A DNA stretch of 64,000 nucleotides from Escherichia phage UPEC06, in the sequence record MW250786. The stretch is one strand, 5' to 3'. Below the pieces are notes generated by a model that saw only the letters and a program-made list of their open reading frames with translations, did not search any database and was not told the origin of the DNA. Position 1 is the stretch's first letter. Each line of letters starts with the position of its first letter. The position numbers and the translations under genes are program-made. Of the stretch, positions 11,225-47,242 are shown one piece after another.

Positions 11225-11446
11225 TTAAGCTACCAGTTCTAAATCTTCAGCTTCTGCGTAGAAACCATCGACGATAACACCGTCCTGACGTGTGAATGCA
11301 ACAATAACATCTCCCCAATCTTCATCGACGAATTCAACAACGCCAATATCTCCAAATCGAACACCAGACAAACTGTAGCGGTCTTCATAATTACCTAACG
11401 GACTGAACTTAACTGTCTGACCTGGATTAACTTCTTTGATATTCAC
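11225..11446 (-). CDS. hypothetical protein
   Basis: ORF track. Confidence 0.35.
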   Translation of the reverse strand: MNIKEVNPGQTVKFSPLGNYEDRYSLSGVRFGDIGVVEFVDEDWGDVIVAFTRQDGVIVDGFYAEAEDLELVA

Positions 11447-11486: not shown

Positions 11487-11798
11487 TTATTCTTCATCAA
11501 CTTCACGACCCATCAAGATATCAAGTTCGTTCAGTTGTTCAATCTGGCTTTCAAGCGCTGCACGTTTCTTCTCTGCTGCATCTTGCTTATCGTATTCACC
11601 GTTGATCAGGGTACGTAGGAATTTAGGGTCGATGTTCAGGTCTTCTTTAGTGATCGCCAGGATGCTTTTCAGATCTTCAGCAGCATCTTTCTGACGACGA
11701 ACAGCTTCAACACCTTCCTGAACAATGTTAGCCAGACGCTTACGAACTTCCAGGTCAGAAGGCAGGGTATTGATCAGTTCGATTTTAGATTTAGCCAT
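11487..11798 (-). CDS. hypothetical protein
   Basis: ORF track; charged, helical character. Confidence 0.35.
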   Translation of the reverse strand: MAKSKIELINTLPSDLEVRKRLANIVQEGVEAVRRQKDAAEDLKSILAITKEDLNIDPKFLRTLINGEYDKQDAAEKKRAALESQIEQLNELDILMGREVDEE

Positions 11799-27725: not shown

Positions 27726-28157
27726 ATGGCTAAAGCACATGTTGTAACTCTCGAAGGTAACTACTCTGATATCGTACTGGGCCGTGTTGTTGCATTTGGT
27801 GACACTGGTTGGAACTTTGAAGAAGTAGAAATGGATTATACTGCTGATCTGGTCGCAGGTCTGCTGGTTAAAGCTGATGGTACTCCGGCTGCTGTTGCAG
27901 ACGCTGCTGACGTTTACGGTGTTCTGGTTGACCGTAAAGTTCTGCCTGGTGTTACCAAGCATGACGGCGCTACCCCGATGGCTGGTGAGAAGCTTCCTAT
28001 GACTATCGCTGTTCGTGGTCTGACCCTGAACGCAACCAAACTGGTCTACGCTGACGGTACTGCAATTGACGATGCTGGTCGCCTGGCTCTGTCTAAAGCT
28101 GGTAACCAAGTAACTGATCGTGTAGTAGCTACCGAATTCCTCGGCGCTGTCCTGTAA
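27726..28157 (+). CDS. putative head decoration protein
   Basis: 143-aa Ala/Gly/Val-rich protein immediately upstream of the major capsid gene, strong SD. Confidence 0.4.
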   Translation: MAKAHVVTLEGNYSDIVLGRVVAFGDTGWNFEEVEMDYTADLVAGLLVKADGTPAAVADAADVYGVLVDRKVLPGVTKHDGATPMAGEKLPMTIAVRGLTLNATKLVYADGTAIDDAGRLALSKAGNQVTDRVVATEFLGAVL

Positions 28158-28180
28158 CTTTTTCGAAGGAGAATATTTAA

Positions 28181-29176
28181 ATGCAAAATGGTGATTTTCA
28201 AATCCTGGATTACACTGGCCTGATCTCTACTCTGCCGCGTGTTGATACCCTGCTTCAAAGCATGAACCTGTTCACTGAGAACTTTGGTCGTACTACTATC
28301 GCTAAAATCGAACGTCGTGATGACGGTGCTGGTCAGATCAATGCTGTACAGCGTGGTAGCGTTCGTCAGCACCTGGGTAATGATCGTAAAAAGATCGTCA
28401 ACCTGAATATCCCGTTCTTCCCTCTGGACCGTTCTATCGACCGTGCAGACATTCAGAACTTCCGTGAATTCGGTACTGACAACGCTCCGGCAACTGTTGA
28501 AGCTGAAGTGGCTCGTCACCTTGCTAGAATTCGTCGCAGTCATGCAGTTCTGAAGTCTAAAGCAATGTACGCTGCTCTGAAAGGTACTTCCTGGTCGCCA
28601 AATGATCCGGTTTGTGATTACGACTACTACGATGTTTGGGGTGTAACCCAGCAGACTGCTGACGTTGACTTCACCGCTCTGGCTATTGACCCGATTGAAG
28701 TGCTGGAAGCTGAAGCTCGTGCACACATCATCGATTACGCTGGTGACCAAGGTGACAACTACGAGATCGTCGTTATGGCATCCCGTCAGTGGTTCTCTGC
28801 TCTGATCGCTCACCCGCAGGTAACTGGTGCATATTCTCAGTACCCTTCTACTCAGGAAGTCCTGCGTCGTCGTCTGGGCGGTAATGCCAACAACCGTATC
28901 TTCGAACACAAGAACATCCTGTTCATCGAAGACATTTCCGGTAACATCCCTGCTGGTGAAGCATACATCTTCCCTCGTGGTATCGATCGTATGTTCGAAA
29001 TCTATTACGCGCCGAGCGACACTCTGGAAGGTGCTAACCAAGTAGCTCAGGAACTGTATGTATTCTTCAAAGAATCTCAGTACCTGCGTGAAGCGAAGAT
29101 CGAATCTGAAACTTCCTTCCTGACTGTTAACAACCGTCCTGAACTGGTAGTTAAGTCTGTTGGTAAGTTTGAATAA
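28181..29176 (+). CDS. major capsid protein (lambda gpE-like family suggested)
   Basis: 331 aa, strong SD, follows scaffold/decoration genes, followed by a strong terminator. Confidence 0.55.
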   Translation: MQNGDFQILDYTGLISTLPRVDTLLQSMNLFTENFGRTTIAKIERRDDGAGQINAVQRGSVRQHLGNDRKKIVNLNIPFFPLDRSIDRADIQNFREFGTDNAPATVEAEVARHLARIRRSHAVLKSKAMYAALKGTSWSPNDPVCDYDYYDVWGVTQQTADVDFTALAIDPIEVLEAEARAHIIDYAGDQGDNYEIVVMASRQWFSALIAHPQVTGAYSQYPSTQEVLRRRLGGNANNRIFEHKNILFIEDISGNIPAGEAYIFPRGIDRMFEIYYAPSDTLEGANQVAQELYVFFKESQYLREAKIESETSFLTVNNRPELVVKSVGKFE

Positions 29177-29192
29177 TCTTAATAACTGATTA

Positions 29193-29220
29193 AAGGTCAC
29201 CTTCGGGTGGCCTTTTTTAT
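29193..29220 (+). terminator. rho-independent terminator after the major capsid gene
   Basis: AGGTCACC-TTCG-GGTGGCCT hairpin followed by TTTTTTAT. Confidence 0.6.
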
Positions 29221-29300
29221 TATGCCTGTACAATTTAGGCAAAATAGTGTACCATTATAAGATAGGCTATTAATCTAATCAATGACGAAGGAGTAATTTA

Positions 29301-34459: not shown

Positions 34460-36058
34460 ATGAGTAAAAGTATTAGAGGAATGGCAGGTCATAATAACGG
34501 TGTTTTTTACGGAAATGCCCTTTATGACTTAGAAAGAAAGGTTAAAATGGATTTTAAAGATATCATGGAAAAAGGTGATTCCAGCCAAACACCTGGTCCA
34601 GAAGGTCCACAAGGACCAAAAGGGGATACTGGCCCTGCCGGACCTGTAGGTCCTGTAGGTCCGCAAGGACCACAGGGTGAGATCGGGCCTCAGGGTCCTA
34701 CTGGCCCTCAAGGACCTGTCGGAGCTACTGGTCCTACCGGACCTGAGGGTAGTGAAGGACCACAAGGCCCTCAAGGAGAGCAAGGTATAGCTGGTCCAGT
34801 AGGACCAAAAGGGGATACTGGTGAACAAGGTCCTCAGGGAGAGCAAGGACCCGCTGGTCTAAAAGGCGATACTGGGGATATTGGCCCTGCTGGACAAGAA
34901 GGGCCAATAGGTCCGACTGGCCCAACTGGCCCTGCCGGACCAAAGGGGGATGTTGGTCCTCAAGGACCTAAAGGCGAAACTGGTGAGCAGGGACCTATTG
35001 GACCACAAGGCCCACAAGGGGATGTTGGTCCTGTAGGTCCAGCAGGGCTTACTTTCCGAGGTTTTTATGATCCTTTAGTTGAATACTCTCAGAACGATAC
35101 TGTATCTTACAACGGATCTACTTATTTTTCCTTAAGAACAAGTATAGGCGCTAGTCCAGACACATCACTTGAAGATTGGTCTTTATTGGCAGCAGAGGGA
35201 GCAAGAGGCCCACAAGGCCCAACTGGCCCTCAGGGACCTAAAGGCGACCAGGGTGAGATTGGTCCTGCCGGAGCTACCGGTCCTGAAGGTCCGACTGGCC
35301 CAACTGGCCCGACTGGACCCGCTGGACCGAAAGGGGATAAAGGAGATAAAGGAGAGGTTGGACCTCAAGGACCTAAAGGCGACCAAGGGGTTATGGGAGA
35401 ACAAGGACCGCAGGGTATCGCTGGAACTACTGGACCTGCTGGTCCACAAGGACCTAAAGGCGACAAAGGAGATGTTGGCCCTCAAGGTCCCGCTGGTCCA
35501 CAAGGTTTGGATGGTATCCAAGGCCCAGCGGGTCCCCAGGGGATTAGAGGAATACAAGGACCTAAAGGCGACACTGGTGAGCAGGGAGAGAAAGGGGATA
35601 AGGGTGACAAGGGTGAGAAAGGTGATGCAGGAATATCAAGAACATTCCTTAAGGTTAAAACATCATCTGTTGGCACCAATCACGCGATCAAAATGCCAGC
35701 ACCTCTTGATAACCTATCTATAGGCATAAGGCTTGATTCAGCGGTACGTTTTAGTATTAGGGGTTGGATTGATACAGATACGACAGCCAGAAATGTTAGG
35801 GGGGATATTGAAGGCTTCAATAACTCTGAAAATTACTTCAATACAACGGTAAGACAATTGATATCTTCATCAACTGCAACTGGCACAACCCTTGTAGCCG
35901 ATATCAGCGAATTCCAAAGAATTAGGCCATATACATTTAGCTTCTTTGAAACAACAACAGAGACAATGTGGAGAGTAACTATAACTCTCTTCACGTCAGG
36001 GTATGTAGTAACTGACAATCAATGGCTATGTATAGAAGCTGTTAGACTTGATGCGTAA
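34460..36058 (+). CDS. collagen-like repeat fibre protein 2
   Basis: 532 aa; two long Gly-X-Y blocks separated by a short non-collagen segment; non-collagen C-terminal domain. Confidence 0.65.
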
Positions 36059-36111
36059 AATAACTGACGAAGGGACTCGCCTACTGATTTGTTCTTTCCT
36101 TTAATAATAGC

Positions 36112-36140
36112 AAAGCCACCTTCGGGTGGCTTTCTTTTTA
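36112..36140 (+). terminator. rho-independent terminator closing the collagen-like module
   Basis: AGCCACC-TTCG-GGTGGCT hairpin followed by TTCTTTTTAT. Confidence 0.6.
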
Positions 36141-36160
36141 TACAAATGACTTTCTCTTTT

Positions 36161-36184
36161 AATTGTGGTAAGATGATACAATAC
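36161..36184 (+). promoter_or_regulatory. candidate promoter motif (AATTGTGGTAAGAT...TACAAT)
   Basis: ATTGTGGTAA(A/G)AT also occurs at 36745-36766 upstream of the next gene. Confidence 0.3.
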
Positions 36185-36197
36185 TCTGGAGGAAACT

Positions 36198-36716
36198 ATG
36201 CATACTGATGAAGAAGTAATTCAACTGGTAAGAACATTTTTAGGTGGCCTTACTGAAGAAGAGATGCCTGACAGCATCATTTTATTTTTCTACAACAAAT
36301 GGAAGGTCTGCTATGATTTGGAAAACAGACCAGACCAATTCTCAATAATCCTTTACAATACTGTTTTAGATTGTGTTCGTTGGCTCTTGGTACAGAACGT
36401 ATCAAGTGGAGCTTCTGGAATACGTGAACGGTTTGAAAAGGTTGGTGATGAAACTATCTCTGTTAAATATGGAGATAATTCCGGCAACTGGCAGGACTTC
36501 CTCGATTACTTACTTGAGCACCCAGAATACATTGATCCTTGCTTAAAAGAGAACTCTGGCCTAGGGCTGGTAATAATAGGTGGTGTTCGTAAAAATGAAG
36601 TTAATCGCGTCCGTCGTAACCCAAATTCATACAATGGGTTTATGGAGAAGGGCATTTATCCGGCACCAGGGACCAGATCAGGAGTAAGGAAGCGAAATCC
36701 GTGGATGGTCAACTAA
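36198..36716 (+). CDS. putative head-tail connector/neck protein
   Basis: By position between head and tail genes; SD GGAGG. Confidence 0.3.
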   Translation: MHTDEEVIQLVRTFLGGLTEEEMPDSIILFFYNKWKVCYDLENRPDQFSIILYNTVLDCVRWLLVQNVSSGASGIRERFEKVGDETISVKYGDNSGNWQDFLDYLLEHPEYIDPCLKENSGLGLVIIGGVRKNEVNRVRRNPNSYNGFMEKGIYPAPGTRSGVRKRNPWMVN

Positions 36717-36779
36717 AGCTTTGAGTTTGTTGCTTTTGCTCATCTATTGTGGTAAAATAACTTTCATGGAGAAATAACC

Positions 36780-37241
36780 GTGAAGAAAACATCAACAGTT
36801 GATTTTTCTGTCATGGATCACTATTTCGACCAACTCTCTGAATTGGAAACAAAAGAGATTGAGGTGGGCTTCTTTGATGAGGCTCACTATTCTGGTCTAA
36901 ATATGGCGACTCTTGCAGCAATTCACGAATTAGGATGGAACAATCTTCCTGAACGTAACTTCATGCTTTCTACTTCGATTCATTATCGCGGTGGACTCAT
37001 CAAGAACCTCAAACGGCTTAATGATGATTTGCTGAAAGGTAAGTCATATAGCCCTGCACTCAAGAAAATCGGTAAGGACTACGCTGACAGCATTCGTTTT
37101 ACAATTGATCAAGGTACGTTCTCCAATAACCGAGTATCCACTGCATGGGCGAGCTATAAAGGATTCAGTGATGCAATGATCCATTACGGCGATCTTTCAG
37201 ATGCAGCGAAGTTTAAGATTGTTCCTCTTACGAAAGACTAA
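36780..37241 (+). CDS. putative head completion/neck protein
   Basis: GTG start with GGAGA SD; position. Confidence 0.3.
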   Translation: MKKTSTVDFSVMDHYFDQLSELETKEIEVGFFDEAHYSGLNMATLAAIHELGWNNLPERNFMLSTSIHYRGGLIKNLKRLNDDLLKGKSYSPALKKIGKDYADSIRFTIDQGTFSNNRVSTAWASYKGFSDAMIHYGDLSDAAKFKIVPLTKD

Positions 37242-40363: not shown

Positions 40364-40442
40364 TTACGTGAGCCTCAAGGATGAGGCCCTTCTTACGCTA
40401 CGGACATATTTATATTAACAAAGTGGACACAGGAGTGTAAAC

Positions 40443-43690: not shown

Positions 43691-43728
43691 GTCCTTATTC
43701 GTGTTAAAATACTGAAAGGAGGAAACTT

Positions 43729-47185: not shown

Positions 47186-47242
47186 TTCTCTGGATATTAT
47201 GATAAAATACGCTTATCGTCTAATTTTGGAGCAGGAGGAACA

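What the first reader, a model, noticed from the sequence alone, without database searches (positions are those of the whole stretch)
36161..36766. Shared upstream motif ATTGTGGTAA(A/G)AT before two consecutive neck genes
AATTGTGGTAAGATGATACAAT (36161-36184) and CTATTGTGGTAAAATAACTTTC (36745-36766) both lie 15-35 nt upstream of gene starts, just after the terminator that closes the collagen module. They may be phage-specific promoter or activator-binding sites rather than sigma70 promoters.
Basis: seen in the sequence. Interest (0 to 1): 0.35.

Follow-up and report, generated by a model that had tools for sequence, protein, structure and literature searches.

The report
Extended -10 late promoters of an rV5-like phage
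The shared motif is real, but it is the core (TG-n-TAAAAT) of two ordinary host-type (sigma-70, "extended -10") promoters in front of phage neck genes, the same late-gene motif already described by sequence analysis in the related phage rV5 in 2013.

Summary
ATTGTGGTAA(G/A)AT occurs exactly twice in the window (36162-36174 and 36746-36758), against 0.02 expected. Both copies are intergenic, on the + strand, 23 and 21 nt before start codons.

The window is a Vequintavirinae (rV5-like) E. coli myophage, closest to Septuagintavirus A73/W70/LTH01.

Each site reads as a two-block sigma-70 promoter:
- Site 1: ATGACT, 17 nt, TG-G-TAAGAT.
- Site 2: TTGCTT, 17 nt, TG-G-TAAAAT-A.

Across eleven phages and contigs from several genera, the only invariant blocks upstream of the Neck1 gene are TTG.TTTTG and TGTGGTAAAATA. 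At site 1 only ATGAC and TG.TAA.AT are invariant, so the full 13-mer identity is peculiar to this phage.

In 26 such sites from four genera, T-T-G sits exactly 17 nt upstream of the -10 hexamer (23, 26 and 19 of 26). The structural module holds at least six of these sites and no TTGACA-type promoter. TTGACA-type promoters fill the early and middle regions instead.

Kropinski et al. 2013 reported this motif (TggTAaAAtA) as putative rV5 late promoters. Site 2 is the positional equivalent of their P056.

A distinct late-gene promoter class is. No transcription-start data were found. The finding is ordinary and of low interest.

The parts
36112..36141 (+). Intrinsic terminator closing the collagen-repeat tail-fibre gene (hairpin 36112-36133, then a T-tract)
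   Evidence: -15.7 kcal/mol, z -5.15. Conserved in A73, LTH01, CR3, phiTE and F1M1E.
36146..36151 (+). Site 1 -35-like hexamer ATGACT (4 of 6 to TTGACA), 17 nt before the -10 hexamer
   Evidence: ATGAC is invariant in 7 phages (alignment A2). KB57 has ATGACA.
36166..36174 (+). Site 1 extended -10 element: TG (36166-36167), G, TAAGAT (36169-36174). Predicted start near A36181.
   Evidence: TG.TAA.AT is invariant, while the flanking TTGTGG is not (A73 has TTATGG, LTH01 has TTGTGA).
36174..36182 (+). Second, overlapping extended -10-like element TGATACAAT. It is specific to this phage and probably not used, because the leader would be too short.
   Evidence: Not conserved in A73 or LTH01.
36188..36200 (+). 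Shine-Dalgarno GGAGGA (36188-36193) and the ATG of the 172-aa gene (phrog_2663, unknown function; equivalent of rV5 gp057)
36730..36738 (+). Site 2 -35-like block TTGCTTTTG (hexamer TTGCTT 36730-36735), 17 nt before the -10 hexamer
   Evidence: TTG.TTTTG is invariant in 11 phages and contigs (alignment A1). It reads TTGATT in KB57, SSBI34 and L018.
36748..36759 (+). Site 2 extended -10 block TGTGGTAAAATA: TG 36750-36751, -10 hexamer TAAAAT 36753-36758, A at -6. Predicted start at C36765 or A36766.
   Evidence: All 12 positions are invariant in 11 phages and contigs. Positional equivalent of rV5 P056.
36768..36782 (+). Shine-Dalgarno GGAG (36768-36771) and the GTG of the 153-aa Neck1/tail-completion gene (phrog_222)
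22890..22898 (+). Same promoter class: TGGTAATAT, 38 nt before the large terminase gene and just after a terminator
   Evidence: KB57 has TGGTAAAAT at the same place.
25994..26022 (+). Same class: TTGCAA, 17 nt, TGTTAAAAT(A), between the portal gene and the methyltransferase-like gene
   Evidence: TTGCAA, 17 nt, TGnTAAAATA is conserved in CR3, KB57 and rV5.
43702..43710 (+). Same class: TGTTAAAAT(A) right after the terminator that follows the tape-measure gene. There is no -35, only the T-tract.
   Evidence: Equivalents in CR3, KB57 and rV5 (P048 region).
47200..47208 (+). Same class: TGATAAAAT(A) before the baseplate-wedge (J-like) gene
   Evidence: Equivalent of rV5 P036 (TTGACT, 17 nt, TGGTAAAAT).

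Best explanation
Both sites are promoters of the sigma-70 'extended -10' type, read by the host RNA polymerase holoenzyme. Sigma region 2 reads TAAGAT or TAAAAT, sigma region 3.0 reads the TG one base upstream, and sigma region 4 makes a partial contact with a half -35 element (ATGACT, TTGCTT) 17 nt upstream. Site 1 restarts transcription after the terminator that ends the tail-fibre gene. Site 2 is an internal booster in front of the neck, sheath and tube genes. Transcripts should start about 7-8 nt after the -10 hexamer (near 36181 and 36765/36766), giving 14-17-nt leaders that carry the ribosome-binding site. Together with at least four more sites in the window, they form the morphogenesis-module ('late') promoter class of Vequintavirinae, with consensus TTGnnn, 14 nt, T-R-TG-n-TAAAAT-A. 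This is the motif TggTAaAAtA published for rV5. Shown here: the sequence anatomy, the conservation and the distribution. Inferred: recognition by sigma-70, the start sites and late timing. The timing mechanism is unknown. My guess (about one in three) is that a phage factor weakens -35-dependent TTGACA promoters, as T4 AsiA or P23-45 gp39 do, which would favour this class.
For: Geometry: both sites have TG at -15/-14, a TAnnnT hexamer and a 17-nt spacer to a -35-like hexamer.

Phylogenetic footprint: upstream of Neck1 in 11 phages and contigs (Neck1 43-68% identical across wider hits), only TTG.TTTTG and TGTGGTAAAATA are invariant. At site 1 only ATGAC and TG.TAA.AT are invariant.

Twenty-six sites from the window, CR3, KB57 and rV5, anchored only on TGnTAnnAT, show T 23/26, T 26/26 and G 19/26 at -35 to -33 with exactly 17-nt spacing. 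They also show T at -17 (17/26), a purine at -16 (24/26) and an enrichment of A at +1.

Class separation: the + strand structural module has no perfect TTGACA promoter. The early and middle regions have many. In A73, 37 TTGACA-type sites all lie outside the structural module's coding strand.

The motif is enriched in structural-module intergenic regions.

rV5 Table S4C lists the same motif at equivalent positions, and the authors found no T4 gp33, gp45 or gp55 homologues.

No sigma factor or RNA polymerase is annotated in rV5.

The identical 12-mer occurs with a TTGACT -35 at 17-18 nt in unrelated viral contigs.

There is no RNA structure and no Rfam family at the sites.
Against: No transcription start-site or expression data for any Vequintavirinae phage were found, so promoter activity and late timing are inferred only. 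The -10 region is more constrained than sigma-70 alone needs: TAAAAT in 20 of the 26 sites, and A at -6 in 21/26 against 9/37 in TTGACA-type sites. This could mean an additional or modified recognition factor. Three of the six window sites have only a terminator T-tract where the -35 should be. The simple consensus scan did not call either site, because each matches only 8 of 12 hexamer positions. Orthologous sites are not independent, so the counts over 26 sites overstate the sample (about 10 independent positions).
Confidence: 0.78

Rival explanations
1. Phage-specific late promoters read through a phage-encoded sigma-like or sigma-replacing factor, in the manner of T4 gp55 on TATAAATA. This is the comparison the rV5 authors drew and the reading the first-stage reader preferred.
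For: TAAAATA is nearly invariant and A at -6 is class-specific. The motif is restricted to the morphogenesis module. It shares AAATA with the T4 late motif. A T4 DsbA-family protein is conserved in the lineage.
Against: TG at -15/-14 and TTG at -35 with a 17-nt spacer are conserved. gp55-type recognition does not use these. Positions -13 to -6 match TATAAATA at only 5 of 8 (site 2) and 3 of 8 (site 1). No gp55, gp33 or gp45 homologues are known and no sigma factor is annotated in rV5. The polymerase is T7-like, with no sliding clamp annotated.
Confidence: 0.08
2. The conserved block is mainly a binding site for a phage DNA-binding protein, either an activator or an operator. One candidate is the DsbA-family protein. 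The site would overlap a weak promoter.
For: Conservation at site 2 extends beyond the minimal sigma-70 contacts (TTTTG after the -35 hexamer, G at -13, A at -6). T4 DsbA binds A/T-rich sites overlapping late promoters (PMC2988020). A phrog_639 protein is core to the lineage and is expressed from a TTGACA promoter.
Against: Conservation falls into two blocks with sigma-70 spacing. There is no dyad or direct-repeat symmetry typical of a regulator site. Other members of the class share only TGnTAAAATA and a variable TTG hexamer. T4 DsbA has low affinity, is non-essential and showed no effect in vitro. The window protein does not reach the Pfam DsbA model.
Confidence: 0.1
3. An RNA-level signal in read-through transcripts, such as a processing site or a translational operator just upstream of the ribosome-binding site.
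For: The motif lies 21-23 nt before start codons and would be present on any read-through mRNA, notably at site 2, which has no terminator before it.
Against: The site 2 intergenic RNA has no significant structure (z -0.30). No Rfam family matches. The invariant TTG block 17 nt upstream fits a DNA promoter, not a compact RNA motif. Sites directly after terminators would seldom be transcribed from upstream.
Confidence: 0.03
4. Chance resemblance between two AT-rich intergenic stretches, with no function.
For: The 9-mer alone is not significant. With 2 mismatches allowed the 13-mer is not enriched either.
Against: The exact 13-mer occurs twice against 0.02 expected. The motif is conserved across genera amid diverged flanks. 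It recurs at equivalent positions in four genera.
Confidence: 0.01

Closest known systems
Putative late promoters of phage rV5, MEME motif TggTAaAAtA (Kropinski et al. 2013, Virol J 10:76, Table S4C)
   Same: Same subfamily (Vequintavirinae), same motif and same location upstream of morphogenesis genes. Site 2 is the positional equivalent of rV5 P056 (TTTGTGGTAAAATACA, between gp057 and gp056). The window sites at 43702 and 47200 correspond to P048 and P036.
   Different: Site 1 has no rV5 counterpart: there the terminator abuts gp057. The rV5 authors likened the motif to the T4 late promoter. The conserved TTG at 17 nt and the TG shown here place it in the sigma-70 extended -10 class instead. 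Neither has been tested experimentally.
E. coli sigma-70 extended -10 promoters (TGnTATAAT; TRTG -16 region). Named from established knowledge and as summarised in PMC3950348.
   Same: TG at -15/-14, T and a purine preferred at -17 and -16, a TAnnnT hexamer, and a weak or absent -35.
   Different: The -10 hexamer is almost fixed as TAAAAT and is followed by A. A half -35 (TTG) is usually kept. Use is confined to one phage gene module.
Thermus phage P23-45 middle/late extended -10 promoters with gp39, and T4 AsiA (Tagami et al. 2014, PMC3950348)
   Same: Two promoter classes within one phage that has no RNA polymerase of its own: -10/-35 for early genes and extended -10 for later genes. Extended -10 promoters escape factors that displace sigma region 4.
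   Different: No gp39- or AsiA-like protein was identified here (tblastn with a recalled AsiA sequence found nothing). Most sites keep a TTG -35 contact. The switch itself is only a hypothesis.
T4 late promoters TATAAATA (gp55, gp33, gp45; PMC2988020)
   Same: A short A/T-rich -10-region motif in front of morphogenesis genes. The two share AAATA. A DsbA-family gene is present in both phage groups.
   Different: Only 5 of 8 and 3 of 8 matches. TG and -35 contacts are conserved here. No gp55, gp33 or gp45 homologues are known.
T4 middle promoters (MotA box at -30 plus a -10 element, with AsiA)
   Same: Site 2 contains TGCTTTT, which resembles the MotA-box core TGCTT(t/c)A.
   Different: The box would end 15 nt from the -10 hexamer rather than 11-13 nt. 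It reads TGATT in KB57, SSBI34 and L018. No MotA or AsiA is known in this lineage. The 17-nt geometry fits a sigma-70 -35 element.

Membership tests
sigma-70 extended -10 promoter | TG dinucleotide at -15/-14, one base upstream of the -10 hexamer | tested here: met
   TG at 36166-36167 and 36750-36751. Invariant in alignments A1 and A2.
sigma-70 extended -10 promoter | -10 hexamer of form TAnnnT close to TATAAT | tested here: met
   TAAGAT (4 of 6) and TAAAAT (5 of 6). T at -12, A at -11 and T at -7 are invariant in 26 sites.
sigma-70 extended -10 promoter | -35 element weak or dispensable; if present, 17 +/- 1 nt upstream | tested here: met
   ATGACT and TTGCTT at 17 nt. TTG at -35 to -33 in 16 of 26 sites, ATG in 3, and a T-tract only in 7.
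sigma-70 extended -10 promoter | Initiation by the sigma-70 holoenzyme about 7 nt downstream of the -10 hexamer | not testable with these tools
   There is only indirect support: A is enriched 7-8 nt after the hexamer. No start-site data were found.
rV5-type putative late promoter (TggTAaAAtA) | Match to the published motif | tested here: met
   Site 2 is TGGTAAAATA (10 of 10). Site 1 is TGGTAAGATG (8 of 10). Compared with Table S4C.
rV5-type putative late promoter (TggTAaAAtA) | Located upstream of morphogenesis genes in a Vequintavirinae genome | tested here: met
   The window is about 91% identical to Septuagintavirus A73, W70 and LTH01. The downstream genes are Neck1, head completion, neck terminator and sheath.
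rV5-type putative late promoter (TggTAaAAtA) | Positional equivalence with a listed rV5 site | tested here: met
   Site 2 corresponds to P056, between the gp057 and gp056 homologues. Site 1 has no rV5 equivalent.
rV5-type putative late promoter (TggTAaAAtA) | Late timing of transcription | not testable with these tools
   No expression data are available for rV5 or its relatives.
T4 late promoter (gp55-dependent) | TATAAATA at -13 to -6 | tested here: not met
   GTAAAATA (5 of 8) and GTAAGATG (3 of 8), read directly.
T4 late promoter (gp55-dependent) | gp55, gp33 and sliding-clamp gp45 encoded by the phage | tested here: not met
   The rV5 authors found no homologues. None is annotated in the rV5 RefSeq record. 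This was not searched independently with profiles.
T4 middle promoter (MotA/AsiA) | MotA box (a/t)(a/t)(a/t)TGCTT(t/c)A ending 11-13 nt from the -10 hexamer | tested here: not met
   TGCTTTT ends 15 nt from the -10 hexamer. It reads TGATT in three lineages. Site 1 has no such box.
T4 middle promoter (MotA/AsiA) | AsiA and MotA encoded by the phage | tested here: inconclusive
Sensitivity is low, and MotA was not tested.

The most novel reading that the evidence does not exclude
Vequintavirinae may time their morphogenesis genes with a promoter-class switch that has not yet been characterised. An unidentified phage protein would weaken the TTGACA-class early and middle promoters, leaving the TGnTAAAATA extended -10 class active. 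Candidates are a sigma-region-4 or beta-flap remodeller like T4 AsiA or P23-45 gp39, or the conserved 103-aa DsbA-family DNA-binding protein at 11487-11798 acting on the TAAAATA core. This would be such a switch for a large group of therapeutic E. coli, Klebsiella and Salmonella phages.
Probability: 0.25. Interest if true: 0.5.

Novelty: new member of a known kind. Interest (0 to 1): 0.2.

Why it matters
It matters only modestly. The result gives usable promoter annotations for an rV5-like phage: where the morphogenesis operons start, and which start codons in relatives are mis-called. It also refines a 2013 bioinformatic motif from "T4-late-like" to "sigma-70 extended -10 with a half -35". 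Finally, it shows that two cleanly separated promoter classes are conserved across several genera of a phage subfamily widely used in therapy and biocontrol. That makes the unanswered question of how these phages, which lack their own polymerase or sigma factor, delay late genes easy to test. The motif itself is neither new nor surprising.

Tried and rejected
- RNA element: the site 2 intergenic RNA has no significant structure (z -0.30), the site 1 leader is unstructured, and Rfam finds only tRNAs in the window.
- T4 late promoter: only 5 of 8 and 3 of 8 matches, and no gp55, gp33 or gp45.
- MotA box at site 2: the distance to the -10 hexamer is wrong, and it reads TGATT in three lineages.
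- AsiA: tblastn with a recalled sequence found nothing. This is a weak test.
- Srd-like anti-sigma: rV5 gp011 hits the PHROGs 'decoy of host sigma70' and 'Srd', but no homologue was found in the window or A73, so it cannot be the general switch.
- gp33-like neighbour of the DsbA-family gene: the 73-aa downstream protein (11225-11446) is phrog_7871, of unknown function. It looks beta-rich and acidic, and it is separated by 40 nt rather than translationally coupled. Not pursued.
- PDB sequence search with the DsbA-family protein gave only designed helical proteins.
- Literature searches for transcriptome or start-site data on Vequintavirinae, rV5 or PVP-SE1 found only the rV5 genome paper.
- The built-in sigma-70 scan did not call either site, because each matches 8 of 12 hexamer positions and the scan requires 9.
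- The long - strand ORF 28046-29242 picked by my greedy gene caller is an antisense artefact over the capsid gene.

Full report
**Observation**

The two strings are present. ATTGTGGTAAGAT lies at 36162-36174 and ATTGTGGTAAAAT at 36746-36758, both on the + strand. On its own it is not significant: 0.81 matches are expected and 15 of 100 shuffles give two or more. The shared 13-mer is significant, with 2 matches against 0.02 expected and none of 100 shuffles giving two.

Both copies are intergenic and end 23 nt and 21 nt before the start codons of consecutive genes (ATG 36198, GTG 36780), with Shine-Dalgarno sequences in between. Only site 1 follows the terminator, which is a strong hairpin at 36112-36133 (-15.7 kcal/mol, z -5.15) followed by a T-tract.

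**Origin and gene context**

The window is a Vequintavirinae (rV5-like) E. coli myophage. It is about 91% identical to Septuagintavirus phages A73, W70, LTH01, A5-4 and A7_1.

- The upstream gene (34460-36058) is a collagen-repeat tail fibre (Pfam Collagen, E 2e-47).
- The gene after site 1 (36198-36716) is a conserved protein of unknown function (phrog_2663), the counterpart of rV5 gp057.
- The gene after site 2 (36780-37241) is the Neck1/tail-completion protein (phrog_222).
- Head-completion, neck-terminator and sheath genes follow.

**Anatomy**

Each site reads as a complete two-block promoter of the sigma-70 extended -10 kind.

| | -35-like hexamer | spacer | TG | -10 hexamer |
|---|---|---|---|---|
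| Site 1 | ATGACT (36146-36151) | 17 nt | 36166-36167 | TAAGAT (36169-36174) |
| Site 2 | TTGCTT (36730-36735) | 17 nt | 36750-36751 | TAAAAT (36753-36758), then A |

The built-in consensus scan missed both, because each matches only 8 of 12 hexamer positions and the scan does not credit the TG.

**Conservation**

I collected the equivalent intergenic regions from A73, LTH01, Enterobacter phage F1M1E, Cronobacter CR3, Salmonella SSBI34, Pectobacterium phiTE, Klebsiella KB57, rV5 and IMG/VR contigs.

Upstream of Neck1, in eleven sequences, the only invariant columns are TTG.TTTTG and TGTGGTAAAATA. The spacer, the leader and the end of the upstream gene all vary (alignment A1). A pattern scan of IMG/VR found 16 further loci with the same synteny (gp057-like gene, this block, Neck1), where Neck1 is 43-68% identical.

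At site 1, in seven phages, only ATGAC and TG.TAA.AT are invariant (alignment A2). The bases that make the two window sites look identical are not conserved: A73 has TTATGGTAAAAT, LTH01 has TTGTGATAATAT, and CR3 and KB57 have TATGATAA-AT. The functional core is therefore TGnTAAnAT plus a -35-like hexamer. The 13-mer identity is a peculiarity of this phage. rV5 has no site 1.

**A promoter class**

The structural module (+ strand, about 22.9-57.2 kb) contains at least six such sites 18-38 nt before start codons, four of them immediately after terminators:

- 22890, before the large terminase gene
- 26014 (TTGCAA, 17 nt, TGTTAAAATA)
- 36166 and 36750, the two sites of the finding
- 43702, after the tape-measure gene
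- 47200, before the baseplate wedge gene

An unbiased k-mer count on the 12 intergenic regions of the module recovers three signals: the terminator T-tract, the Shine-Dalgarno sequence and GGTAAAAT. GGTAAAAT appears in 7 of 12 regions, while the best k-mer in 40 shuffles reached 5 (27 shuffles), 4 (12) or 6 (1).

Equivalent sites exist in CR3, KB57 and rV5. I aligned 26 sites from the four phages, anchored only on TGnTAnnAT. Positions -35, -34 and -33 are T 23/26, T 26/26 and G 19/26 at exactly 17-nt spacing. T is at -17 in 17/26, a purine at -16 in 24/26, the hexamer is TAAAAT, A is at -6 in 21/26, and A is enriched 7-8 nt after the hexamer, where transcription should start. These sites are partly orthologous, about ten independent positions, so the counts overstate the sample. 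Retention amid diverged flanks is still informative.

Perfect TTGACA promoters are abundant in the early and middle regions of the window and of A73. They are absent from the coding strand of the structural module. Their -10 hexamers are diverse, only 5 of 37 in A73 carry TG, and only 9 of 37 have A at -6.

**What it is**

TG at -15/-14, a TAnnnT hexamer and TTG 17 nt upstream are the contact points of sigma-70 regions 3.0, 2.4 and 4.2 (established knowledge; the extended -10 class is summarised in PMC3950348). Four further observations fit this reading:

- No sigma factor, anti-sigma factor or RNA polymerase is annotated anywhere in the rV5 RefSeq record.
- The CB7 paper likewise reports no phage polymerase.
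- The identical 12-mer TGTGGTAAAATA is found with a TTGACT -35 at 17-18 nt in unrelated viral contig families. It is therefore a generic strong extended -10 element, not a lineage-specific signal.
- RNA-level readings are unsupported: the region has no significant fold and no Rfam family.

I conclude, at about 0.78, that both sites are host-polymerase extended -10 promoters. Site 1 restarts transcription after the fibre-gene terminator. Site 2 boosts the neck, sheath and tube genes.

**Comparison with what is known**

Kropinski et al. (2013) ran MEME on the upstream regions of rV5 late genes. They found eight copies of TggTAaAAtA, compared it with the T4 late promoter TATAAATA, and noted that rV5 has no gp33, gp45 or gp55. 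Their Table S4C includes P056 (TTTGTGGTAAAATACA), between gp057 and gp056. That is the exact positional equivalent of site 2. Their P048 and P036 correspond to the window sites at 43702 and 47200. The finding is thus a rediscovery of a published but untested motif in a new relative.

My analysis shifts the interpretation. The T4-late resemblance is weak (5 of 8 and 3 of 8 matches). The conserved TG and the 17-nt TTG argue for sigma-70. A MotA-box reading of TTGCTTTTG fails on spacing and on the TGATT variants.

**How timing might work (inferred, not shown)**

One precedent is the arrangement of strong -35-dependent promoters for early and middle genes with -35-poor extended -10 promoters for morphogenesis genes. 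In Thermus phage P23-45, gp39 displaces sigma region 4 and spares extended -10 promoters. T4 AsiA likewise spares extended -10 promoters (PMC3950348).

I found no AsiA-like protein, though the test was weak. The Srd-like rV5 gp011 has no homologue in the window or A73.

One lead emerged. The 103-aa protein at 11487-11798 (- strand) belongs to phrog_639 (E 1.7e-19). This is the PHROG into which T4 DsbA falls. The protein is conserved in 229 phage records covering the Vequintavirinae genera and is preceded by a TTGACA promoter. T4 DsbA binds A/T-rich sites overlapping late promoters, but weakly. It is non-essential and showed no effect in the in vitro late system (PMC2988020). The window protein does not reach the Pfam model. 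This remains a hypothesis.

**Verdict**

The finding is a new member of a known kind and of low interest. No start-site data exist for this subfamily in the searched literature, so a simple 5'-end mapping experiment would settle the matter.

Noticed in passing
window 11487-11798 (- strand): A 103-aa protein in phrog_639 'transcriptional regulator' (E 1.7e-19), the PHROG that also holds T4 DsbA. It is conserved in 229 phage records across the Vequintavirinae genera and is preceded by a TTGACA, 17 nt, TATTAT promoter. It does not reach the Pfam Phage_DsbA model. It is a possible accessory of late transcription.
   Followed up: partly
window 36174-36182: A second extended -10-like element (TGATACAAT) overlaps the end of site 1. 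It is absent from A73 and LTH01. A start from it would fall inside the Shine-Dalgarno sequence.
   Followed up: partly
window 40412-40441 (- strand): A promoter-like site on the antisense strand (TTTACA, 18 nt, TG-T-TAATAT) in the gap between the tube gene and the tail-assembly-chaperone gene, pointing back into the tube and sheath genes. It is conserved in A73 (17411).
   Followed up: no
window 36112 and 35900-36061: Megablast homology to LTH01, A5-4 and A7_1 begins exactly at the terminator hairpin (36112), so the terminator and promoter mark a mosaic boundary of the tail-fibre module. The last 150-160 nt of the collagen-repeat fibre gene are 75-79% identical to tail-fibre genes of Rogue1, Jk06 and C119-type siphophages.
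   Followed up: no
L001 9103 (A73 record 13159); L006 (SSBI34): The annotated ATG of A73_142 lies inside the -10 region of site 1 (tATGgtaaaat) and is probably a mis-called start. In SSBI34 the gp057-like gene is not annotated at all. GenBank records of CR9 and PBES 02 label a gene in this neck region (the match spans the gp057-like and Neck1 genes) 'putative RNA polymerase', which looks like a mis-annotation.
   Followed up: partly
window 29177-29300: After the capsid-gene terminator there is a block, CTGTACAATTTAGGCAAAATAGTGTACCATTATAAGATAGGC, that is nearly identical in CR3. It carries TAAGAT without a properly placed TG and a TGTACA/TGTACC repeat. It is a conserved element of a different, unexplained type upstream of the 197-aa gene.
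   Followed up: no
window 20220-22060: A tRNA cluster on the + strand between the early region and the terminase gene. ARAGORN finds Met, Tyr, Pro, Gly and Gln. Rfam adds a weak fifth match at 20220-20298 and misses Tyr.
   Followed up: partly
window 28046-29242 (- strand): A 398-aa open reading frame antisense to the decoration and major capsid genes (27726-28157 and 28181-29176, + strand). It is almost certainly not a gene, but it misleads length-based ORF pickers.
   Followed up: yes
window 36766-36777: The predicted site 2 transcript would begin at or next to an AUG (AUGGAGAAAUAA), a three-codon mini-ORF overlapping the Shine-Dalgarno sequence and out of frame with the Neck1 GTG. The ATG is conserved in CR3-type phages but not in KB57 or rV5.
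   Followed up: no
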